A stretch of 64,000 nucleotides of DNA. It comes from a virus. Position numbers and translations under genes: made by a program. The stretch is from positions 1 through 64,000 of IMG/VR virus record IMGVR_UViG_3300045988_147927; one strand, 5' to 3'. The notes under the pieces were generated by a model, which was given only the letters and a program-made list of their open reading frames with translations, was not told the DNA's origin and searched no databases. This document shows, piece after piece, positions 25,191-45,300 of this stretch. Numbering within the stretch: the stretch's first letter is position 1; the number at the start of each line of letters is the position of its first letter.

Positions 25191-26102
25191 TTGAAGTATA
25201 GTAGTGATTATATCGTAGAATCATTAAGGGGTAATTCTATTAATGAAGCTAAAGTTGTAACATTTGATGGTAAGAGTAATCCAGATTTTGGTCAGGCTGT
25301 TATTATGGCTGGTGGAGCAGGTTCAGGCAAAGGAACAGCTTTGAAGAGTGTTATCATGATGCAGGGTAAAATCTTTGATGTTGATGAGTTAAAACAATTA
25401 TATGTAAAAGGTTCTAAAGCAGGTATTTTTGATGATATTCGTGGTGGTAATTATGATTTCAAGAATCCTGATGATGTAGCTTTATTACATCAAAAAGTAA
25501 AAGAGTTAGGTTTAAAAGATAGAAGGGAACAGGCTTTCTTTTCATCATTATCTACTAATCGTTTACCTAATATTGTATTTGATATTACAGGTGATGAAGA
25601 ATCTAAGTTGACTAAGTTGTCAATGATGTGTAAGGATATTGGATATAAAGTAACTTTAGTATGGGTAGTTGCTAATAGGGAAGAAGCATTTATTCGTAAT
25701 TTACAACGTGATAGGACTGTTCCTGATGAAGTATTCCATGCTACACATAATAATGTAAAAACAAGTGTATTTAGTTTTCTTGAAGGTAGTGGTAGTAAAT
25801 TCTGTGATAGTGCTTGGATAGTATTCTCTAGTGGTGCTAGTGCTGAGGAAATGACACCTGATGAAAAGAGAGCTTTAGAAAATAATAGGGTTATTAGATT
25901 AGAAAAAAAAGGTTCTAAATTTGTTGTACCTGATAAAGTATATCGTAAAATAATGAAGGTTACAGGTAGGAATGAGATAGACCCTAAGAATCCTCAAAAT
26001 TATATTAGTCAGAAAGATTTTGCTAAAGATGGTTTAAAAGATGCTATTAAATCTGTTAGAGGTGGTAAAACTACAGTTAGGAAAACTATTTTTAATAAGT
26101 AG
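25191..26102 (+). CDS. P-loop NTPase / kinase-like protein (zeta-toxin/AAA_33-like)
   Basis: Walker A MAGGAGSGKGT near the N-terminus. TTG start after GTGAGGT. Confidence 0.55.
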   Translation: MKYSSDYIVESLRGNSINEAKVVTFDGKSNPDFGQAVIMAGGAGSGKGTALKSVIMMQGKIFDVDELKQLYVKGSKAGIFDDIRGGNYDFKNPDDVALLHQKVKELGLKDRREQAFFSSLSTNRLPNIVFDITGDEESKLTKLSMMCKDIGYKVTLVWVVANREEAFIRNLQRDRTVPDEVFHATHNNVKTSVFSFLEGSGSKFCDSAWIVFSSGASAEEMTPDEKRALENNRVIRLEKKGSKFVVPDKVYRKIMKVTGRNEIDPKNPQNYISQKDFAKDGLKDAIKSVRGGKTTVRKTIFNK

Positions 26103-26116
26103 TAGAGGTATTTTAA

Positions 26117-26167
26117 ATGAAAATACTACGTAGTGTTGTTGAGATGGAACATATAGATGGGATTTAT
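26117..26167 (+). CDS. tail-completion / virion-morphogenesis protein, exon 1 (17 codons)
   Basis: ATG after TAGAGGT; MKILRSVVEMEHIDGIY. It is followed by an in-frame TAA, which is the first triplet of the inserted element. Confidence 0.6.
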
Positions 26168-26616
26168 TAAGATGTCAAAATAACAATCATGAATTTATTC
26201 ATAAATATTTTTGACAGAATAGTAAGTCTGTAGGGAAACTTGCAGATAGTAGCAACTAGATGTTGTTCAACAAAGAAACTGAATTGCTGGGAACTCCTAA
26301 AGCTAGCTAAACTACAACGTGATATCTATTAATATGATATGGATGTGAATGTGGCGAAAGCAGAGAAAATTAGTTAGATGGTATAAGGTTAAACCCTAAG
26401 TACTGCGATAATGGATAATCAGCAGCCAAGCCCGTGAGGGAAGGTTCAACGACTATTCCTCGTGAGGGAAGTACATTCAAGCGAATGGAAGTGGTTTCGC
26501 CTAAGTCGTAAAAGTGATATGGATAAGATATAGTCTGTGCTTTATTGAAAGATAAAGATGCACGTAGTGGTGCTGGCTAAGTGGTAGCGTACTTAGTTGA
26601 ACGAGCGTTCTCTCAA
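26168..26616 (+). ncRNA. group I intron catalytic core (copy A)
   Basis: This stretch is more GC-rich than its surroundings. It contains AAGATATAGTC (26525-26535), which I recognise as the classical P7 3' strand and which pairs with GACTAT in GGTTCAACGACTAT. It has GNRA-capped hairpins (CCC-GTGA-GGG; TCTGTAGG-GAAA-CTTGCAGA). The hairpin CTTTAT-TGAAAG-ATAAAG (26540-26557) covaries with copy B. Confidence 0.7.
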
Positions 26617-26718
26617 AAATTTCATAGTTATAGTTATATATTTGATAATAGTTCCTATTAGTATTATAATAAAGATATTAGGATTCTTTATTCAGTATGA
26701 GAGGAGGTGTTATCATCT

Positions 26719-27810
26719 ATGAATAAAAGTTTTAAAGTTAGGATATATCCGACACAAGAACAAAAAATATTGTTAGAAAAGACCTTTGGTGCAAACAGGT
26801 TTGTTTATAATTACTTTCTCAACTTAAAAAGTAAGTTGTATGAGTTTTATAAAATAAGAATTAGTTATAATAATTCTTCTAAGATTCTAACTGAGTTGAA
26901 GAAACAAAAAACTTGGTTTAAAGAAGTTGATAGTGTTTCTTTACAACAAACACTTAGAGATTTAGATAGTGCGTATCAAAACTTTTTTAGTAGGAGATGT
27001 AAATATCCTAAATTTAAGAGAAAAGATGATAAAAACTCATATCGTACTAACTCTAATATTAAAATAGATAATTGGTATATAACAGTTCCTAAGGTGGGAA
27101 TGTTACATTTTAGAGATAAAAACAGATTTAGTGGTGTTACTAAAATTTATAATGTAACAATATCTAAGACATCTAGTGGAAAATATTTTGCTAGCATTTC
27201 AGCTGAGGTTGATATCGCAACTTTTGAGAAAAGCAATCAAAATGTAGGTATAGACTTGGGATTGAAAGATTTTGCTATTCTTAATACTGGAGAAAAGATA
27301 CATAATCCTAGAATATTAAAACATCTTGAAGATAAATACAGAAAGTTAGCTAAATCTGTTTCAAGAAAAGTTAAAGGTTCAGTTAATTATCAAAAAGCTA
27401 GGATTAAGTTAGCTAGGTTTCATGAATACATAGTTAATATACGAAAAGATTTTCTACACAAACTATCTACTAATATAGTTAAGACTTATGATATTATGTG
27501 TATAGAAAATCTCAATATTAGTGGTTTAATGAAAAATCGTAGATTAGAAAAATCATTTCAGAATGTTTCATTGTATGAGTTCATATGGATGTTAGAGTAT
27601 AAAGCTAAGTGGTATGGTAAGACTATTTCTAAAGTAGATAGATTTTATCCATCATCACAGTTATGTTCTAATTGTGGTTATAAGAATAAAGAAGTTAAAA
27701 ATCTTAGCGTTCGTGAGTGGGATTGTCCTGAATGTGGAACTATTCATGATAGAGATATAAACTCAGCAATTAATATTTTGCATGAGGGATTACGACTTTT
27801 AGAGATATAA
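26719..27810 (+). CDS. tnpB: TnpB (IS200/IS605 OrfB-type RNA-guided nuclease), apparently intact
   Basis: GAGGAGGTG RBS. N-terminal [13 protein letters not shown]. RuvC residues in [18 protein letters not shown] and [11 protein letters not shown]. Zinc ribbon CSNCGYKN...WDCPECG. Confidence 0.85.
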
Positions 27811-27817
27811 ATATATG

Positions 27818-27948
27818 AATATATAAGTATAACTGTGGGACACATGGGGATAGCCTATTGTCTGGTTGTAAGACTCTTTTAACATAGTATTAAAAGAGCG
27901 AACCATTGGGTAGGAACCTCACTGACTTTGAGTCATAGAGGATGTCAG
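27818..27948 (+). ncRNA. conserved 3'-terminal RNA module of element A (putative omega-RNA scaffold overlapping the intron 3' end)
   Basis: About 130 nt, nearly identical to 32876..33009 and clearly related to 42229..42359. Ends GAGGATGTCAG. The terminal hairpin TGACT-TTG-AGTCA covaries between copies. Confidence 0.65.
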
Positions 27949-28512
27949 ATTACTGTATCTCAACATATGTTAAAGCTAGGTTCTAAAAGGATACAAAAGG
28001 AGTTAGGGAGTCTTTATTATCAAGACTTCCTAATATTTATGGCTGTTACTTTAGCTAAAGAGTTTGAACGTGCTATAGATACACAAAGATATAAAGGTAC
28101 TAAGTGGGCGCCCTTGTCGATTTCTTATTTAACATATAAACAGAGAAAGAATTTATCTCTTAATATATGGGAGGCGACCGGTTATTTAAAGAATAGTATT
28201 ACTGTATTCAAGAAGTTTACTAATTTTATTGCAGTAGGTTTTCAACAAAAACAATATTATCCTAATAGTGGAGCACAGGTAAATATGGTTGCTCGGTATG
28301 TTGAGTATGGTACTAATAGGAATACAGTAAATGGTAAGAAAACAATGCCAGCTAGACCTTTATTTAGACCTATAGCTAGTTATGTTTCTAAACATATATC
28401 AAGGTATTATAAGACTTATCTAAAAGAGATAGATAAACTCAGAAATAAAAAGATACCATACTTATATCTTAGGAATAAGAGTGTTAAAAGGTCATCTAAA
28501 AATAGGAAGTAG
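27949..28512 (+). CDS. tail-completion / virion-morphogenesis protein (Mu gpG / HK97 gp10-like), exon 2
   Basis: KWAPLSISYLTYKQRKN...IWEATGYLKNSI...VGF...YVEYGT...MPARPLFRP matches the W-x-PL...sG-x-L-x-S...PaRpF pattern of tail-completion proteins. There is no start or RBS at the exon boundary. Confidence 0.65.
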   Translation: MTVSQHMLKLGSKRIQKELGSLYYQDFLIFMAVTLAKEFERAIDTQRYKGTKWAPLSISYLTYKQRKNLSLNIWEATGYLKNSITVFKKFTNFIAVGFQQKQYYPNSGAQVNMVARYVEYGTNRNTVNGKKTMPARPLFRPIASYVSKHISRYYKTYLKEIDKLRNKKIPYLYLRNKSVKRSSKNRK

Positions 28513-28560: not shown

Positions 28561-28603
28561 AGATATGTAGAGTGGTTAGATTAATTTATAAGGTGTGGTA
28601 TAT

Positions 28604-29206
28604 ATGGATAAACAAAAATTAATTTTAGAAGAACTTAGAGGTGTAGAGAATATTAATGAATCTAGCTTAGGTAGATTATATCAACATATAGGTAAAGATT
28701 ATATTGTATTCATTACATCTGATAGACAGGCATTAGATGTTACTGAAAATAATAAACGTAGGAAAGAGTTAGAGAAGTATATTCGTTTAGCTGGTTTTGG
28801 GTATAATAAAGTAGTTGGAAATTATGTAGAGGAAGAGACTGGTGAACCTAAGAAAGAGAAGTCTTTTGTAGTTTATGGTAAAGATGAGGAAGAGATGCTT
28901 AAAATGTTTAAGCGTTTGGGTGAAAAGTATGAGCAAGACTCTATCTTATTTGTAGATTTAGATGGTAATGCTTATCTTTTATATACATATGGTAGCAAAA
29001 AGGGTACCAGTGATAAACTTGGTAATTTTCATGTAGGTATTGTAGGTGATTTTTATTCTACAATAGGTAAAAAAGCCTTTAGATTTGAGGTTAGTGAGTC
29101 TTACTATAAGGAAAGTTTTACTACATTTAGTGGTATGCTACACGAAAATTTCATGAAATTTGTTAATAAGTACGATGATTTTGATATTAGATGGGAAAAT
29201 AGATAA
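28604..29206 (+). CDS. hypothetical protein
   Basis: ATG 28604 after AAGGTG. The track ORF starts at GTG 28595. Confidence 0.65.
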   Translation: MDKQKLILEELRGVENINESSLGRLYQHIGKDYIVFITSDRQALDVTENNKRRKELEKYIRLAGFGYNKVVGNYVEEETGEPKKEKSFVVYGKDEEEMLKMFKRLGEKYEQDSILFVDLDGNAYLLYTYGSKKGTSDKLGNFHVGIVGDFYSTIGKKAFRFEVSESYYKESFTTFSGMLHENFMKFVNKYDDFDIRWENR

Positions 29207-32871: not shown

Positions 32872-33009
32872 TATATTATAAGTATAACCGTGGGACACAT
32901 GGGGATAGCCTATTGTCTGGTTGTAAGACTCTTTTAACATAGTATTAAAAGAGCGAACCGTTGGGTAGGAACCTCACTGACTTAATTAAAAGTCAAGAGA
33001 GGATGTCAG
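32864..33009 (+). mobile_element. solo copy of the IStron 3'-terminal RNA module (orphan omega-RNA-like / right-end remnant)
   Basis: AAGTATAACCGTGGGACACATGGGGATAGCCTATTGTCTGGTTGTAAGACTCTTTTAACATAGTATTAAAAGAGCGAACCGTTGGGTAGGAACCTCACTGACTT...GAGGATGTCAG differs from 27818..27948 by only a few substitutions plus a changed terminal hairpin. No ribozyme core or tnpB is adjacent. Confidence 0.75.
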
Positions 33010-33067
33010 AAAGTGTATATCTTCTCTGATTATCTGCCTTTTACTATTAATAGATATAACACTTAGT

Positions 33068-33106
33068 AAAACACACTTCTATGGTTTAAATAGAAGTGTG
33101 TTTTTA
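33068..33106 (+). terminator. rho-independent terminator
   Basis: Stem AAACACACTTCT / AGAAGTGTGTTT followed by TTTTT. Confidence 0.75.
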
Positions 33107-33125
33107 TATATGTTAATGTAAGGGG

Positions 33126-39696: not shown

Positions 39697-40053
39697 ATGC
39701 ATAAACCGTCATTAATAAAAACAGAAATAACACAGTCTTTTACAAGTAGACAGGATAAAATATCTCGATATTCTAAATTAAAGAGGTTAGTTAATCTCAA
39801 TGGTGATACATATATAGAAACACCTAACAAGTTTACAATAGAGGAGAGTAATAGGGATATTTACTACTCTGTTGAGAAAGGTTTTGAGGATAGATTAGAT
39901 TTAATATCTAATAAATTTTATGGTACACCGTTAATGTACTGGGCAATAGCTGTTATGAATCATATAGATAACCCTTTAGATGTTCCTGTAGGTGTTGTGT
40001 TGAGGATACCAGCCATTGAGTCCATTTACGATACAGGGGTGATTCAAATTTGA
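39697..40053 (+). CDS. LysM-like tail protein (P2 gpX / XkdP-like)
   Basis: FEDRLDLISNKFYGTPLMYWAIAVMNHIDNPLDVPVGVVLRIP is a LysM-type pattern, in the conserved position upstream of the hub gene. Confidence 0.6.
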   Translation: MHKPSLIKTEITQSFTSRQDKISRYSKLKRLVNLNGDTYIETPNKFTIEESNRDIYYSVEKGFEDRLDLISNKFYGTPLMYWAIAVMNHIDNPLDVPVGVVLRIPAIESIYDTGVIQI

Positions 40054-40541
40054 GTGATTACAAAGATAGTCTTATTACTAGAAATTTAAGTCCTCATCAG
40101 CCTCTATATGCTTTTATAGATTTAAGTATTGATGGGCATAATATATCATATTTCGGTAATAAAGAATTTAATGATTCAGTAATTAGTCTTAATGTGGAAA
40201 GAAAAGGTACTTCTAATCAAGATTTAGCTGGTTCTACTTTTGATATAGAGTTGTATGATGATACTGCTTTAAGAATAGAAGAGCTGTTAGCGAATACTAT
40301 ACCAGCAGGTTCAAATTTTAAGACCGCTAAAGAGTTGAAAGATACTGGTAATAAGGTTACTGATGGTAATATCGAGTGGAAACAACAAGAGGAAGCTAAG
40401 AAAAAAGAGCAGGCAGAGAAGGATAATACATATACAGAGGAAGATGAAAAGAAAGACCCTAATCATAAAGCAGGCACTAAAAAACAGTCTGGTGGTGCAA
40501 CTCAGTCTGGAAATGTTAGGTGTAAATATGGATGGTGTGAT
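40050..40541 (+). CDS. baseplate hub / late-control-D-like multidomain protein, exon 1 (164 codons)
   Basis: TTG start after AGGGGTG. Ends ...NVRCKYGWCD, then an in-frame TAA that is the first triplet of element B. Confidence 0.65.
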
Positions 40542-41028
40542 TAAATGTGCTACATATATTCATAGTTATAGTTATGAATAGGTATGTATATAGCACGTAT
40601 AGTCCATACATCTAGTGATAGGTGTGTGTCGAGTGGTAACACTCGGAGATTCATTGAATTGCTGGAAAGTCCTAAAGCTCAATTAACTACAACGTGATAT
40701 CTAATAATATGATATGAGCGTGAATGGTAGCGAAAGCAGAAAAAATAATTGAGATGGTATAAGGTGAAATAAAAGCTATATCACATATGATATAGTCCTA
40801 AGTACTGAGATAATGGACAATCAGCAGCCAAGCACGTAAGTGAAGGTTCAACGACTATCCTGTGAAGGAGTACGGCTCTAGTGAGTGGGTGAGAATCCCT
40901 TAAATGGAAGTGGTGAAGGTCTTTCAGATAGAAAGATTAAGATATAGTCTGTGCCTACATGAAAGTGTAGGATGCACGTAGTGGTGCTGGCTAGAAGTAG
41001 CGATTCTAGTTGAACGAGCATCCTCTCA
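40542..41028 (+). ncRNA. group I intron catalytic core (copy B)
   Basis: AAGATATAGTC at 40939-40949. GGTTCAACGACTAT. Hairpins CGAGTG-GTAA-CACTCG and CAC-GTAA-GTG. CCTACA-TGAAAG-TGTAGG (40954-40971) covaries with copy A. Confidence 0.7.
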
Positions 41029-41131
41029 TAGAGAGTTTTATGGTTTTATATATATTGAAATTAATCTCCTTTTGTAGTACATTAATAATATAATGTTTAT
41101 TGTTAATGATACGAAAGGGGGTGTAAATCTC

Positions 41132-42224
41132 GTGAATAAGAGTTTTAAAGTTAGGATTTATCCAAATCAAGAACAGAAAGTCTTGATTGATAAGACATTT
41201 GGATGTGCAAGATTCATATACAATTTTATGTTGAATCTGAAACAAAAATTGTATGAGTATCATAATATTTCTTTAGGTTTTTATGACCTATCTAAGATTC
41301 TTACAGAAATTAAAAGACATAAATTGTGGCTTAAAGAAGTTGATAAGTGGGCATTACAAAATGCTTTAAAAGATTTAGATAGTGCTTATAAAAGATTTTA
41401 TAATGGTGGTGGATTTCCTAAGTTTAAATCTAAAAAGCGAGATAAAAACTCCTATCGTACAAATCATAGAATACAGTTAATTGTAGATAATAAGAAAGTT
41501 AAAATTTCCTAAAGTTGGTAGTATTAAGTTCAGAGATAAAAGTAGATTTGATGGAATTACTAAAATTTATAATATCACTATTTCTAGGACATCTAGTGGA
41601 AAATATTATGCTAGTATATCTGCTGAGGTTAATATTGAACATTTTGAGAAAACCAATCAGAGTGTGGGTATTGACTTGGGATTAAAAGATTTCTGTATCT
41701 TAAATGATGGAACTAAGTTTGAAAATCCTAAATTTTTAGTTAGAAATGAAAAGCGACTTAGATTACTTCAAAAATCGTTAAGTCGCAAGATTTGTGGTTC
41801 TAAAAACTATGAAAAAGCTAAGATAAAGTTAGCTAAATTTCATGAGTATATTGTTAATTTTCGTAAAGATTATTTACATAAAATATCGTTATATTTGGTT
41901 AGAAATTATGATATTTTATGTGCAGAAACATTGAGAGTTAAGAATATGGTAAAGAATCATAAGTTAGCTAAATCAATTAGTGATGTTAGTTGGTATGAAT
42001 TTTGTAGGCAGTTAGAGTATAAGTGTCTGTGGTATGGAAAGAGATTTGTACAGATTAGTACATATTTTGCATCATCACAAATATGTTCTAATTGTGGGTA
42101 TAAGAATTCTGATGTTAAAAATCTCAATGTAAGAGAATGGACTTGCTCTAAATGTGGCAGTCATAATGAAAGAGATATCAATGCATCGATTAATATTTTG
42201 CATGAAGGATTAAGAATTATATAA
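41132..42224 (+). pseudogene. tnpB: tnpB with a single frameshift near nt 41490-41510
   Basis: GTG start after GAAAGGGGGTG. The N-terminal frame stops at 41510-41512 (...DNKKVKIS*). The continuation [45 protein letters not shown]...GIDLGLKDF is in the +1 frame. The downstream RuvC and zinc-ribbon motifs are intact. Confidence 0.75.
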
Positions 42225-42228
42225 TTTC

Positions 42229-42359
42229 AGTATATAGAACCATAGGACATATGGGGATAGCCTACTGTCATAGTGTAAGACGTATAGTGAATCTGTTTCA
42301 TTATGTGTAATTATTGGGTAGGAACTTCGTCACTTTAATGAGTGGTGAGAGGATGTCAG
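42229..42359 (+). ncRNA. 3'-terminal RNA module of element B
   Basis: GGACATATGGGGATAGCCTACTGTC...TTGGGTAGGAACTTCGTCACTTTAATGAGTGGTGAGAGGATGTCAG is homologous to 27818..27948. Confidence 0.6.
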
Positions 42360-45300
42360 AGAAAAGGTCAAGTAATAGAAGATATTTCTCTTATAGGGAA
42401 GGCTTTAAAATATACCTTAGCTTTTGAGGGGCCTGCTTTAACCCTAACATTAAATTGTGTGGCTGAGGCTGATGTTAAGACTACGCAAAAGTTGAATATG
42501 GAGTTTAGCGCTGAAAAGTTTGGGGGTAAGCCATCAGATATTGTTAGAGCATTATGTGAGAAAGCTCATATCAAGATTGGTCGGATTGTAGAAACAAAAC
42601 CAATCTTAGGTGATGATGGTAAACCTAAAGAGTTTAAGATGGGTTCTCGTACTATGAGGGAGTTTATTGCAGATGAGTTGTTAGAAAAAGCTACACCTAC
42701 TGATTCTGATAAACCTGGTTATAAATTCTTTTTGCAAGTTGTTGATGGGGAAGAGAAAGCATTTTTTGTTCCTAATGATATGTATGGTGATATGACTGTT
42801 ATCACATATAAGAAGATGGAAGAGACTACAACAACTACTACAACCACAACAACTTCTAATGATAAGCCTAGTGGGTTAAGTCCGTATCAAAAAGTTATGG
42901 GTGTATCTACGCCAATTCTAGGGCATACAAGAGATACTAATGTTAGTGTAGTAGGTGATGGTAAGGTTGTCTTTGTAGGTGATTTTAGAGTTAGAGATTT
43001 ACAAAATTCAGTACCTGATAATAAAGATTTAATGTATATCTATGATGATAAAGCTAATTATAGGTGGTTAAAGGATAACTTTGAATTAATAGAGTCTAAG
43101 TTACATATGGGGTATCGTGTATATTTTATGTTAGGGCATAATGATATAGACAATATTCTTAATTATGTTGAGTTTTATAATAAAGTAGCTAAAGAATTAG
43201 ATACAAAGGGTGTTCAAGTCTTTGTTGTATCTGTTTTACCTGTTTTCATGGGTAAAACAGATTTACATAATAGTAATATACAACGATTTAATAATGCTAT
43301 AAATCAGAATAGAGTTAGGGAATTGCATTATGTAAATATTTATGGTGATATTTTAAAGACTTTAAGAAGTAATAATACTAAACAAGATGGTATTTCTTAT
43401 AATAATAGATTAATGCAAGATGTATATAATAGAATAGTCTATTATCGTGAGGATTTAACTACATCTAAGAATATAGGTCTTAGTAGAAGTAATATTATAA
43501 ATGGGTTAGAATTTGTTACACATACATTACCGGATATGTTAAATACAAATTCATATCAAGGTAATGTTTCAGATGATGAGTATTATGGTAGTTTTATTGG
43601 TGTAGAGGAAGATACATCAAACCTAGTAGCATTAGCTTTAGCTGATGCCTCAAATGAGGATATAGCAAATTTACTATCTGAGATGACATTGTGGAAGATG
43701 TACTTAGAGGATGAGAATAATAAGGTATCTAAGGTAGGTATACTTGGTAGTGATAAGACTGAGAGTATCGATAAGTCTAAGTTACAGTTTGATAAAAATA
43801 AATTAGTTAATGCTTTCATAGATGTACTAGATAAGAAGGGATATACTAAGGAAGTTAAAGAGTATGTATCACTTGTAAATACATTTACTGATACTATTAA
43901 AGATAAGAAATTAGATACAACTGATAAATATGTAAATGCTTTGACTATGTTATCTAGCAAACTTGGTAAAGATAGTTCTATTTCAAAAACTATTACTAAT
44001 GTTGTTAAGGTTATTACTGAGAATAAAGATAAGGTTCTTAATGTTAAGGACAAAAAGATTTCTTATGATGATTTAGCTACAGATATAGTTTCTAAATTAC
44101 TACCTAATCAGAGTGCTAATATAAGTAAAATCACTGATAAGGTTTCATCTATTATGAAGTTAGATAGAGATAAGATAAAAAAAGGTGATTATTCTGAATT
44201 ACAAGGAATGTTAGCTAAAGAGCTAGGGATTAATGATAAAGATATTAATAAATATGTAGAGATAGGTAAGACTATATCTGAGATATATAAGAATAGGGAA
44301 TACTTTGACATAAAAGATTTAAGTCTAGTTTCTACTGATTTATTAAAGAGTGTTGTAGGGGAAGAAAAAGTAAAAAAAGTTGAGAAGTATATAGATACTG
44401 CTCAGAATTTATACAAGGCTTTTAGTGGTGCTAAAGATATAAAGGATATCAATAGTGCTGTAACTTCTTTGTCTGATGTGTTAGGTAAGAATACAAAAAT
44501 TAATAGGTATATAGATACTGCTAGGTCTTTTATGGATATCATTAATAAAGGTAGTGTTGGTACAGGCATCATTAATACTAATAATGGAATTAGTAAAATC
44601 ATAAATGATAGGTTGCCTAATATAGCACAGGCAGGTACTTTAGGTGGAGTTGTGGCATCTACTGTAGGTATATCACCAACTTCTACTAAAGAGGTGTTAA
44701 AGGCTTATGTTCCTAAAGGTGTTGATAGTGGTGTTACTAAGGTAAATGGTAGTCCTACTGATGGTACTAAGACAGGTCAATCATCTAATGTTACAAAAGA
44801 TGGGATATCAGATGAGGAAATGAAGAAAGGTGTTAGGTCTGTTACTTTTGGTGGTAAAAAGACTAAAATGGAGATTTGTGGTGAGTATGAGATTTACACA
44901 GGAAGACCTGATGGTAGGGTAATTAGTTTCTCACCAGAGTTTGAGAGTGATAATATAGCTACAAATAAAGTACCTACAAGTGCATTGACAATAGATGGTG
45001 TTAGGAATGAGATGCTAGAGTGTACTATTGAGGGTGTTGGTGGTGCTTTAGCTAGTGATGCTTATATGGAGAGGTCTAATCAAGAGGGGAGTAGTAATGT
45101 TGGTGTTGTGTTAGGTATGAGTGGTTCTTCTTTCAAGAATTTAGAATCATCAGCCGCAAGTATGTGGAGTCGATATTTTAGTTCTGTATATGGTGCTAGT
45201 TTAGAGATATTAGGCGATACTAGAGTTAAGTTTCAAGGACATATCAAGATAGCAGTTTATACTAAGTACGGTTTTTTACACCATACCAGTGGTATTTACA

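What the first reader, a model, noticed from the sequence alone, without database searches (positions are those of the whole stretch)
27818..27970. The same 3' terminus looks like both the intron 3' splice site and a TnpB guide-RNA scaffold; predicted guides equal the first bases of the 3' exons
In IS200/IS605 elements the TnpB guide RNA (omega-RNA) scaffold spans the tnpB 3' end and right end, and the guide is the DNA just outside the right end. Here the right end (...GAGGATGTCAG) coincides with the intron's terminal G.

That would make the guides the start of exon 2:
- Element A: ATTACTGTATCTCAACATAT (from 27949).
- Element B: AGAAAAGGTCAAGTAATAGA (from 42360).

The motifs 5' of the left ends are TTTAT (A) and GTGAT (B), reminiscent of the TTGAT-type TAM of ISDra2-like TnpB.

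An intron-less allele would therefore read TAM + guide match and be cleavable by TnpB. The insertion separates the TAM from the target, so the occupied allele would be immune. In a phage this amounts to an RNA-guided homing or exclusion device against co-infecting intron-less relatives, analogous to T4 intron homing endonucleases.

It also implies a built-in competition between splicing and guide-RNA maturation on one transcript. As I recall, this has been reported for TnpB-associated group I introns in bacteria, but I am not aware of it for a phage late gene.
Basis: inference. Interest (0 to 1): 0.8.

Follow-up and report, generated by a model that had tools for sequence, protein, structure and literature searches.

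The report
TnpB-carrying self-splicing introns in phage genes

Summary
Element A (26168-27948) and element B (40542-42359) each hold a group I ribozyme (Rfam 68.6 and 75.1 bits), a tnpB gene close to ISDra2 TnpB (E 2.5e-90), and a ~116-nt 3' module ending GAGGATGTCAG. Intron-less alleles in related phage contigs fix both boundaries to the base. They read TTTAT|ATyACTG... for gene A and GTGAT|AGAAAAGGTCAAGTAATAGA for gene B.

The 3' module has an ISDra2-type omega-RNA layout, supported by covariation. Its last ~12 nt can instead pair with a segment just after the ribozyme core, so splicing and guide-RNA folding exclude each other.

All of this matches "group A" (IS200/IS605) IStrons (Tourasse 2014; Zedaveinyte 2023). 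They insert after TTGAT/ATTAT/TTTAT, end in TCAG, and place the IS part after P9.2-GAACGA. It is therefore a new member of a known kind.

New details:
- The host is a TnpA-less clade of ~130-230 kb phages.
- Two lineages sit in one genome, and the TAM -3 base co-varies with the TnpB residue equivalent to ISDra2 K76.
- tnpB-B carries a frameshift.
- A third, orphan scaffold lies at 32876-33009.

Homing or exclusion between co-infecting phages is plausible but untested.

The parts
26117..26167 (+). Exon 1 of the tail-completion/Neck1-like gene (17 codons). It ends in TTTAT, which is both the 5' splice-site flank and the TAM.
   Evidence: Intron-less homologues are continuous across this point. 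PHROG tail completion/Neck1 match.
26168..27948 (+). Element A: a complete group A IStron of 1781 nt. It starts with an in-frame TAA and ends ...GTCAG.
26220..26228 (+). Candidate internal guide sequence UAGUAAGUC. It pairs with exon GAUUUAU plus intron UA (P1), placing a U.G wobble at the 5' splice site.
   Evidence: Duplex prediction of -8.5 kcal/mol. Otherwise read by eye, so this is inference.
26222..26557 (+). Group I ribozyme core of element A.
   Evidence: Rfam RF00028, 68.6 bits (gathering score 50), E 8.6e-17, full model 1-253. About 80% identical over 175 nt to introns of Twort-like Staphylococcus phages.
26596..26614 (+). GUUGAACGAG motif closing P9.2, followed by the 5' arm GCGUUCUCUC of the long-range helix that brings the 3' splice site to the core.
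   Evidence: The motif and its position match Tourasse 2014.
26642..26670 (+). Sigma-70-like promoter TTGATA-17-TATAAT, downstream of the ribozyme and upstream of tnpB.
   Evidence: Matches 11 of 12 consensus positions. Similar TTGATA...TAyAAT sequences lie upstream of tnpB in several relatives by visual inspection. Function is inferred.
26719..27810 (+). tnpB-A, 363 aa, intact. RuvC D/E/D residues and the zinc-finger cysteines are present.
   Evidence: Pfam HTH_OrfB_IS605, OrfB_IS605 and Cas12f1-like_TNB. ISDra2 TnpB 8bf8/8exa/8h1j at E 2.5e-90 over the full length. dN/dS 0.17-0.21 against relatives.
27833..27948 (+). Omega-RNA-type scaffold, which is also the right end and the intron's 3' terminal domain. 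It contains: stem 1 at 27833-27847 with loop GGACA; a long-range stem 27854-27859 with 27906-27914; a variable hairpin at 27875-27897; a terminal hairpin at 27917-27941; and UGUC at 27943-27946, the pseudoknot partner of the loop. G27948 is the intron's terminal G.
   Evidence: The layout matches the ISDra2 omega-RNA description.
27936..27945 (+). 3' arm UAGAGGAUGU of the splicing helix. It overlaps the terminal stem and the pseudoknot strand of the scaffold, so the two folds exclude each other.
27949..27968 (+). Predicted guide A, ATTACTGTATCTCAACATAT, which is the first bases of exon 2.
27949..28512 (+). Exon 2 of the tail-completion/Neck1-like gene.
40050..40541 (+). Exon 1 (164 codons) of a 1328-aa virion gene downstream of the tape-measure gene. 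It ends in GTGAT.
40542..42359 (+). Element B: a second group A IStron of 1818 nt, from a different lineage.
40602..40971 (+). Group I ribozyme core of element B.
   Evidence: Rfam RF00028, 75.1 bits, E 1e-18.
41019..41028 (+). 5' arm CAUCCUCUCA of the splicing helix of element B. It is perfectly complementary to 42346-42355.
   Evidence: -20.6 kcal/mol.
41132..42224 (+). tnpB-B, broken by one extra A in the run GTTAAAATTTCC (41498-41509). The repaired product is 363 aa, retains D/E/D, and has Lys at the ISDra2 K76 position.
42240..42359 (+). Omega-RNA-type scaffold and right end of element B. Stem 1 CCAUA/UAUGG is compensatory relative to element A.
42360..42379 (+). Predicted guide B, AGAAAAGGTCAAGTAATAGA.
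   Evidence: A perfect TAM plus target is present in L094 and L095.
32876..33009 (+). Third, orphan copy of the scaffold (type A), with no ribozyme and no tnpB. It lies after a crAss001_48-family ORF and is followed by AAAGTGTATATCTTCTCTGA.

Best explanation
Both elements are group A (IS200/IS605-type, CdISt1-like) IStrons. Each is an IA2-type self-splicing group I intron fused to a TnpA-less IS605-type module, which consists of an internal promoter, tnpB and the right end.

The DNA boundaries of the transposon coincide with the RNA splice sites. The pentanucleotide before the left end is therefore at once the 5' exon strand of P1, the insertion target, and the TnpB TAM. The last ~116 nt are at once the transposon right end, the omega-RNA scaffold, and the intron's 3' terminal domain ending in the terminal G.

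An unspliced transcript, or a transcript from the internal promoter, can yield a scaffold followed by about 16 nt of exon 2 as guide. With TnpB, that RNA would recognise only an unoccupied allele, where TAM and target are adjacent.

On a full-length transcript the last ~12 nt (GAGAGGAUGU) have two options. They can pair with the segment just after P9.2-GAACGA, bringing the 3' splice site to the ribozyme so that splicing restores the virion gene. Or they can form the scaffold's terminal stem and pseudoknot, giving the guide RNA. The two outcomes exclude each other.

Shown here: the anatomy, the exact boundaries, homology to ISDra2 TnpB, covariation in the scaffold, the alternative helix, the existence of empty alleles, and purifying selection on tnpB.

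Inferred: that the elements splice, that the omega-RNA is made, that TnpB-A cleaves TTTAT-flanked targets, and that this drives homing or marker exclusion in mixed infections. Element A looks competent. Element B has a frameshifted tnpB and is probably only a splicing passenger.
For: Ribozymes and nuclease:
- Both ribozymes score above the Rfam gathering score.
- TnpB-A matches ISDra2 TnpB at E 2.5e-90 with D191/E278/D361 equivalents present, and has the three Pfam TnpB domains.

Boundaries:
- In-frame exon joins.
- Uninterrupted homologues fix the boundaries to the base.
- One of them lies in a contig about 97% identical to the window, which keeps element A but lacks element B.

Defining group A IStron features from Tourasse 2014 are all present:
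- T-rich pentanucleotide target (TTTAT, GTGAT; relatives have TTTAT, GTTAT, TTGAT).
- No target duplication and variable 3' flanks.
- 3' end TCAG.
- IS part placed after P9.2-GAACGA.
- An 8-12 bp helix enclosing the ORF region.

Scaffold:
- Across 20 distinct copies, 99.5% of cells are paired, against 35-48% when the partners are slid.
- Five pairs show compensatory double changes, a level reached by 0 of 500 shuffles.
- The variable hairpins keep their shape with different sequences.
- The loop GGACA at -111..-107 can pair with UGUC at -6..-3. This parallels the ISDra2 pseudoknot, -106..-102 with -6..-2.
- The module accompanies tnpB even where the ribozyme is absent, in about 18 of 25 clade loci. 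It therefore belongs to the TnpB unit and not only to the intron.

Selection and specificity:
- All 16 tnpB copies examined are intact, with dN/dS 0.14-0.25.
- The TAM -3 base co-varies with the K76-equivalent residue. It is Ser with T, and Lys with G as in ISDra2.

Literature: the dual role of the IStron right end and the splicing/omega-RNA antagonism were shown experimentally for a C. botulinum IStron and described bioinformatically for C. difficile IS605-type IStrons.
Against: - There are no expression, splicing or cleavage data for this phage.
- tnpB-B is frameshifted.
- No Y1 TnpA is present in the window or in any of the clade loci, so the route of transposition is unknown.
- The pseudoknot pairs are nearly invariant, so covariation neither supports nor tests them.
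- The single-sequence fold of the scaffold is only marginally better than shuffles, z = -1.6.
- The TAM of the Ser-76 type of TnpB has not been measured.
- All sampled empty gene-A alleles with a TTTAT TAM differ from guide A at position 3 or at positions 9, 12 and 15.
- I found no convincing P10 pairing by eye.
Confidence: 0.85

Rival explanations
1. Relic reading. The elements are only self-splicing introns carrying a decaying transposon remnant. The 3' module is conserved solely because splicing needs it (terminal G, long-range helix), and no functional guide RNA or nuclease activity remains.
For: tnpB-B is frameshifted. No TnpA is present anywhere in the clade loci. The last ~12 nt are needed for the splicing helix. 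There are no expression data.
Against: - tnpB is intact in 16 of 16 relatives examined, with dN/dS 0.14-0.25.
- The catalytic triad is present in TnpB-A.
- Stem 1 and the long-range stem covary although they take no part in the splicing helix.
- The module is conserved next to tnpB in many copies that have lost the ribozyme, and also as an orphan copy.
Confidence: 0.08
2. DNA-signal reading. The conserved hairpins of the 3' module are mainly single-stranded DNA signals for a Y1 TnpA supplied in trans by the host bacterium or elsewhere in the phage. Spread would then occur by peel-and-paste transposition, with TnpB only guarding against loss, as in bacterial IS605.
For: In IS200/IS605 elements the right-end DNA hairpins and the omega-RNA stems coincide. 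Related elements occupy many different sites after T-rich pentanucleotides without target duplication. That pattern implies real transposition events at some time. Element B is absent from a ~97% identical genome.
Against: No TnpA or TnpA fragment lies in the window or in 4-kb flanks of about 25 clade copies. The nearest bacterial TnpB relatives are at most 56% identical, so this is a phage-resident lineage. This reading complements the guide-RNA role rather than excluding it.
Confidence: 0.05
3. Phage-weapon reading. The TnpB/omega-RNA units have been co-opted by the phage lineage as RNA-guided weapons against related co-infecting phages. They would give marker exclusion and intron or 'intron-less' homing, including ribozyme-less copies and the orphan scaffold acting in trans.
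For: - There are several tnpB+scaffold units per genome, most without ribozyme or recognisable left end, yet under purifying selection.
- Natural empty alleles carry an intact TAM+target.
- The orphan scaffold is conserved with an identical 3' flank in four relatives.
- The idea that TnpA-less IStrons spread by intron homing is already in a 2026 review, as untested.
Against: - No target for the orphan guide was found in any fetched locus.
- The copy with a perfect natural target (element B) has a broken nuclease gene.
- Selfish maintenance explains the same data without any benefit to the phage.
Confidence: 0.25

Closest known systems
Group A IStrons (CdISt1 of Clostridioides difficile, FnISt1/2, EfISt1, LbISt1; Braun 2000, Tourasse 2014; 'CdiIStrons' of Zedaveinyte 2023)
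   Same: - IA2-type group I intron at the 5' end.
- IS200/IS605-type ORF B (tnpB) placed after P9.2-GAACGA.
- Insertion after TTGAT/ATTAT/TTTAT with no target duplication, and a 3' end of TCAG.
- A short helix enclosing the ORF region.
- Often lacks TnpA.
- The omega-RNA lies in the tnpB 3' UTR and overlaps the 3' splice site.
   Different: - It resides in a large uncultured myovirus-type phage, inside virion genes.
- No tnpA fragment remains at all.
- TnpB is at most 56% identical to any bacterial relative found.
- Two lineages with different TAM and K76-equivalent states share one genome.
- GTGAT and GTTAT are target variants not listed in the 2014 survey.
ISDra2 (IS200/IS605) TnpB-omega-RNA, Deinococcus radiodurans
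   Same: - Full-length protein homology (E 2.5e-90) with the catalytic D/E/D residues.
- TTGAT-family TAM.
- A ~116-nt scaffold with a 5' stem-loop whose loop pairs with positions -6..-3, a long-range stem, and a terminal hairpin.
- The guide is the DNA just outside the right end.
   Different: - ISDra2 has no intron, and it does have tnpA.
- TnpB-A has Ser/Val at K76/F77 and a 3-residue deletion at T123/N124.
- The scaffold here lies wholly downstream of the tnpB stop codon.
CboIStron (group B, IS607-type) of Clostridium botulinum, and CbISt3/4 in C. botulinum phages c-st and D-1873
   Same: - Intron + TnpB + omega-RNA with overlapping DNA and RNA boundaries.
- Experimentally shown antagonism between splicing and omega-RNA folding or TnpB binding.
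- Precedent for IStrons carried on phage genomes.
   Different: - Those have a serine-recombinase TnpA, a TGGG/GG target, a 3' end of CGG, and a G rather than U at the 5' splice site.
- None of these features applies here.
Homing-endonuclease group I introns of phages (T4 td/I-TevI, Twort and SPO1 introns)
   Same: - A group I intron in an essential phage gene.
- An intron-encoded nuclease predicted to cut only the intron-less allele.
- Expected spread in mixed infections.
- The ribozyme core is ~80% identical over 175 nt to Twort-like phage introns.
   Different: - The nuclease is RNA-guided (TnpB), and its target is defined by the flanking exon, so it is reprogrammed at every new insertion site.
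- The nuclease's guide RNA competes with splicing for the same nucleotides.

Membership tests
Group A IStron (IS200/IS605-type) | Group I intron (IA2-like) ribozyme at the 5' end of the element | tested here: met
   RF00028 at 68.6 and 75.1 bits against a gathering score of 50. About 80% identity to Twort-like phage introns. The IA2 subclass was not modelled helix by helix.
Group A IStron (IS200/IS605-type) | IS200/IS605-type ORF B (tnpB) placed downstream of P9.2 after a GAACGA-type motif | tested here: met
   GTTGAACGAG at 26596-26605 and 41009-41018, followed by the promoter and tnpB.
Group A IStron (IS200/IS605-type) | [quoted passage not shown] | tested here: met
   TTTAT for A and GTGAT for B; relatives have TTTAT, GTTAT and TTGAT. 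Empty sites show no duplication. GTGAT and GTTAT are one-base variants of the listed motifs.
Group A IStron (IS200/IS605-type) | 3' terminus ends in TCAG | tested here: met
   ...GGATGTCAG in A, B and C and in most relatives.
Group A IStron (IS200/IS605-type) | Short (6-10 bp) helix flanking the ORF region | tested here: met
   8-12 bp between the segment after GAACGA and the last ~12 nt before CAG, in A, B, L006, L008, L017 and L033.
Group A IStron (IS200/IS605-type) | Y1 tyrosine transposase ORF A, or a fragment of it | tested here: not met
   tblastn with two Y1 TnpA proteins finds nothing in the window or the clade loci.
Group A IStron (IS200/IS605-type) | Self-splicing that restores the host mRNA | not testable with these tools
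   Only indirect support. There is an in-frame TAA at the first intron codon in two virion genes, and joining at the boundaries reproduces the uninterrupted homologues.
TnpB-omega-RNA (OMEGA) system of IS200/IS605 | TnpB with an intact RuvC triad and zinc finger | tested here: met
   Met for A. B is frameshifted, but the residues are retained after repair.
TnpB-omega-RNA (OMEGA) system of IS200/IS605 | Structured scaffold at the tnpB 3' end / right end, with a pseudoknot, followed by flank-derived guide | tested here: met
   The stems are supported by covariation. The pseudoknot is placed as in ISDra2 but is invariant, so it is consistent and not proven.
TnpB-omega-RNA (OMEGA) system of IS200/IS605 | RNA-guided, TAM-dependent DNA cleavage | not testable with these tools
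   Needs biochemistry. The TAM of the Ser-76 variant is unknown.
Group B IStron (IS607-type) | GG-ending target, 3' end CGG, serine-recombinase TnpA, G at the 5' splice site | tested here: not met
   The targets end in AT, the 3' end is CAG, and there is no TnpA.

The most novel reading that the evidence does not exclude
In this clade of large phages, TnpA-less TnpB/omega-RNA units act as RNA-guided homing and marker-exclusion devices between co-infecting relatives. The units occur with a ribozyme when inside genes, without one when intergenic, and once as an orphan scaffold. This would be the first natural case of RNA-guided intron homing in a virus. The TAM, the ribozyme's internal guide sequence and the TnpB TAM-reading residue would be co-evolving as a three-way lock.
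Probability: 0.25. Interest if true: 0.75.

Novelty: new member of a known kind. Interest (0 to 1): 0.45.

Why it matters
IStrons are the only known elements in which a ribozyme, a transposon end and a CRISPR-like guide RNA share the same nucleotides. Whether TnpA-less IStrons spread by TnpB-driven intron homing is stated in a 2026 review as an open, untested idea.

Phages are the classic system for measuring intron homing and marker exclusion in mixed infections. This clade supplies what such a test needs:
- Occupied and empty alleles in ~97% identical genomes.
- An apparently intact nuclease (TnpB-A).
- An internal negative control (frameshifted TnpB-B).
- Natural TAM/K76 variants that predict a changed TAM specificity.

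For annotation, it also shows that apparently split virion genes and "transposase" ORFs in phage metagenomes can be a single spliced gene.

Tried and rejected
- **Rfam on the whole window.** Both the gathering and the E-value modes found nothing. Both introns appear only when about 2 kb is scanned. The same filter loss hid the L006 and L008 introns in a 45-kb batch. Negative Rfam results on long inputs should therefore not be trusted here.
- **Search for the source phage.** megablast against 50,697 phage records gave only the ~175-nt intron core in Staphylococcus Twort-like phages. tblastn with gene B's junction region gave nothing.
- **Host inference.** The nearest isolates for the tail sheath are Streptococcus, Bacillus and Listeria myoviruses at 31-44% identity. 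This suggests a Bacillota host but does not show it. Bacterial TnpB relatives are at most 56% identical, so no host could be inferred from them.
- **TnpB in isolated phages.** 434 records have TnpB relatives, at most 48.5% identical. I checked whether three of them are IStrons. S. thermophilus P7574, Enterococcus iF6 and Bacillus BSP21 look like plain intergenic IS605/TnpB insertions.
- **Orphan guide C.** I looked for a target in all fetched loci and found none. I also looked for a clean empty site for the orphan module. Homology to relatives simply breaks after the crAss001_48 gene.
- **P10 pairing.** I looked for pairing between the internal guide sequence and exon 2 by eye and found none convincing.
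- **RNAalifold.** On the MAFFT alignment it recovered only three helices, because the variable hairpins are misaligned. I folded them per sequence instead.
- **Co-conversion tracts.** I considered testing for them around element A, but all occupied alleles belong to close relatives, so the test would be uninformative.
Full report
**1. What is at the coordinates**

The window is AT-rich (31% G+C) and encodes a contractile-tail virion module on the + strand. It includes a tail sheath, a T4 gp19-like tube, a T4-type baseplate protein, and a tape-measure protein with a lysin domain.

The finding lies at the 3' end of a 1781-nt insertion, element A (26168-27948). A second insertion of 1818 nt, element B, lies at 40542-42359. 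Each element has three parts.

- A group I ribozyme. Rfam RF00028 scores 68.6 bits (E 8.6e-17) at 26222-26557, and 75.1 bits (E 1e-18) at 40602-40971. The gathering score is 50.
- A tnpB gene. TnpB-A (26719-27810, 363 aa) has the three Pfam TnpB domains. It aligns end to end with ISDra2 TnpB (8bf8/8exa/8h1j, E 2.5e-90), and the D191/E278/D361 equivalents are present.
- A ~120-130-nt non-coding tail ending GAGGATGTCAG.

The two elements are 77-79% identical in their RNA parts. Their TnpB proteins are 61% identical once a frameshift in B is repaired.

**2. Check of the observation**

Both introns begin with an in-frame TAA. Joining exon 1 to exon 2 at the proposed points gives continuous reading frames of 204 and 1328 aa.

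Related phage contigs in IMG/VR give independent proof. About 35 loci carry gene A uninterrupted and read ...GG(G/T)ATTTAT|AT(T/C/A)ACTGT... across the junction. L001/L060 and L077 carry the same element at the same site. All 33 relatives of gene B are uninterrupted. Two of them (L094, L095) read GTGAT|AGAAAAGGTCAAGTAATAGAAG, which is the TAM plus a perfect 20-nt-plus match to guide B.

L095 comes from contig UViG_3300008138_000009. That contig is about 97% identical to the window around gene B and does carry element A. Element B is therefore a recent gain here, or a recent precise loss there.

The 3' module is a genuine repeat. The exact 11-mer occurs three times, against 0.6 expected with one mismatch allowed. 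nhmmer finds all three copies.

**3. Is the 3' module an omega-RNA scaffold?**

I aligned 20 distinct copies: three from the window and 17 from relatives with 72-93% identical TnpB. Four helices are kept.

- A 5' stem-loop, CCGUG-GGACA-CAUGG.
- A long-range stem, CCUAYU with UUGGGUAGG.
- A variable internal hairpin.
- A terminal hairpin, CYUC...GAGRGG.

For the three alignable helices plus a candidate pseudoknot, 99.5% of cells are standard pairs. When the partners are slid, only 35-48% are. Five pairs show changes on both sides, for example CCAUA/UAUGG, CUGUG/CACAG and CCGAG/CUCGG in stem 1. No shuffle out of 500 reaches these values. The variable hairpins keep 8-12 bp stems with unrelated sequences.

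The loop GGACA sits at -111..-107 from the 3' end and can pair with UGUC at -6..-3. In the ISDra2 cryo-EM structure the 116-nt scaffold has four stems and a pseudoknot between -106..-102 and -6..-2 (Nakagawa 2023). The layout is therefore co-linear. The pseudoknot pairs here are almost invariant, so they are consistent with the model but not tested by covariation.

The module also travels with tnpB rather than with the ribozyme. Only 7 of about 25 clade loci keep the intron, yet almost all keep the module. A third copy in the window has neither ribozyme nor tnpB.

**4. Is the same terminus the 3' splice site, and is there a conflict?**

The terminal G at 27948 (42359 in B) is fixed by the empty alleles.

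The segment immediately after the P9.2-GAACGA motif is GCGUUCUCUC in A (26605-26614) and CAUCCUCUCA in B (41019-41028). It is complementary to the last nucleotides before CAG-3', UAGAGGAUGU in A and UGAGAGGAUG in B. The B pairing is 10 perfect base pairs at -20.6 kcal/mol. The same helix is present in L006, L008, L017 and L033. This is the "IR stem enclosing the ORF region" that Tourasse et al. describe for all IStrons.

Its 3' arm contains the 3' strand of the scaffold's terminal stem and part of the pseudoknot strand. One RNA molecule can therefore adopt the splicing fold or the guide fold, but not both. This is the antagonism shown experimentally for the C. botulinum IStron and predicted for C. 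difficile IS605-type IStrons.

A strong sigma-70-like promoter (TTGATA-17-TATAAT, 26642-26670) lies downstream of the ribozyme. Transcripts starting there could make TnpB and omega-RNA but could not splice. That last point is inference.

**5. TAM, internal guide sequence and TnpB co-vary**

The left-end flanks are:
- TTTAT in element A, L001 and L006.
- GTTAT in L008, L009 and L021.
- TTGAT in L023.
- GTGAT in element B.

In ISDra2, K76 makes a bidentate contact to the -3 G of TTGAT, and K76A abolishes cleavage. The equivalent residue is Lys in TnpB-B, L023 and ISDra2, all of which have G at -3. It is Ser in every TTTAT/GTTAT-type copy.

The ribozyme's presumed internal guide sequence also differs. 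It is UAGUAAGUC in the A type, pairing with GAUUUAU and placing a U.G wobble at the splice site. It is UAUAGUCC in the B type, pairing with GAU (plus reading by eye). The P1 assignment is inference.

The window thus holds two IStron lineages with different predicted specificities. TnpB-A probably cannot substitute for the broken TnpB-B.

**6. State of the two elements**

tnpB-A is intact. tnpB-B has one extra A in GTTAAAATTTCC (41498-41509), which splits it into two ORFs. This may be a real mutation or an assembly error.

No Y1 TnpA, and no fragment of one, is present in the window or in the 4-kb flanks of the clade copies. Even so, all 16 tnpB genes compared are uninterrupted, with dN/dS 0.14-0.25. 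The protein is therefore maintained by selection.

**7. Comparison with what is known**

Tourasse et al. 2014 define group A IStrons by the following features:
- An IA2 intron.
- IS200/IS605 ORFs placed after P9.2-GAACGA.
- Insertion after TTGAT/ATTAT/TTTAT with no duplication.
- A 3' end of TCAG.
- A 6-10 bp enclosing helix.
- Frequent loss of ORF A.

All of these are met here except the presence of ORF A, which is optional.

Zedaveinyte et al. 2023 describe the same boundary overlap for the C. difficile elements: LE = 5' splice site with a TTGAT TAM, and RE = 3' splice site = omega-RNA. A 2026 review states that TnpA-less IStrons could propagate by intron homing if TnpB is active, and lists co-infecting phages as a setting for intron homing.

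IStrons on phage genomes were recorded earlier, but only group B (IS607-type) in C. botulinum phages c-st and D-1873. I found no report of group A IStrons in phage virion genes. TnpB-only IS elements are common in isolated phages, with 434 records. The three I inspected are ordinary intergenic insertions.

**8. Verdict**

The structural interpretation is supported by homology, exact empty sites, covariation and an explicit alternative helix. The thing itself is a known kind of element, a group A IStron, found in a new host: a clade of roughly 130-230 kb uncultured phages in which such units are numerous.

The homing or exclusion role is plausible for element A. Its TAM is intact in empty alleles, but every sampled empty allele has at least one mismatch to the guide, the closest at position 3. 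The role is doubtful for element B, which has a perfect natural target but a broken nuclease gene. Nothing functional has been tested.

The interest is moderate. The concept is published, but the system is unusually well suited to test RNA-guided intron homing.

Noticed in passing
window 32876-33009 (+): There is an orphan third copy of the type-A scaffold ending GAGGATGTCAG, with no ribozyme and no tnpB. It lies directly after a crAss001_48-family ORF (32611/32632-32871) downstream of the tail-tube gene. It is followed by AAAGTGTATATCTTCTCTGA and a hairpin at about 33057-33115. Four close relatives have the same arrangement with an identical 3' flank. Other relatives have an unrelated terminator region instead. 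No target for this 'guide' was found in any fetched locus.
   Followed up: partly
window 41498-41509: tnpB of element B is split by a single extra A in the run GTTAAAATTTCC. The repaired ORF is full length (363 aa) and retains the catalytic residues. This could be a real inactivation, an assembly error, or slippage.
   Followed up: partly
window 26168-26557 and 40542-40971: Rfam scans of the whole 64-kb window missed both group I introns in both the gathering and the E-value modes. Each intron scores well above the gathering score when about 2 kb is scanned. The filters appear to lose these introns, which carry large insertions.
   Followed up: yes
loci L001-L023, L031, L033 (IMG/VR contigs of 130-230 kb): Related phage genomes carry up to three or more tnpB+scaffold units each. 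Most lack a ribozyme or keep only a P9.2 remnant, and some have tnpB starting about 40 nt after the preceding gene's stop codon. All tnpB ORFs are nevertheless intact, with dN/dS 0.14-0.25. This is a phage-resident, TnpA-less TnpB lineage.
   Followed up: partly
TnpB-A residue equivalent to ISDra2 K76 (window about 26926-26931) and TnpB-B (about 41339-41344): The residue that reads the -3 G of the TAM in ISDra2 is Ser-Val in all TTTAT/GTTAT-type copies. It is Lys-Trp or Lys-Cys in the GTGAT/TTGAT-type copies. This predicts a natural TAM switch.
   Followed up: partly
L023 1461-1666: A second, short ORF-less group I intron (RF00028, 69.3 bits) lies about 2 kb upstream of the IStron in a 230-kb relative. 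Free-standing introns therefore coexist with IStrons in this clade.
   Followed up: no
window 25191-26102 and 28595-29206: The genes flanking the interrupted tail-completion gene encode a Zeta-toxin/AAA-like kinase-fold protein and an S-adenosylmethionine-lyase-family protein. The second may have an anti-restriction function. Both sit within the virion module.
   Followed up: no
window 26642-26670: A near-consensus sigma-70 promoter (TTGATA-17-TATAAT) lies inside the intron, between the ribozyme and tnpB. Similar sequences appear upstream of tnpB in several relatives. Transcripts starting there would lack the ribozyme.
   Followed up: partly
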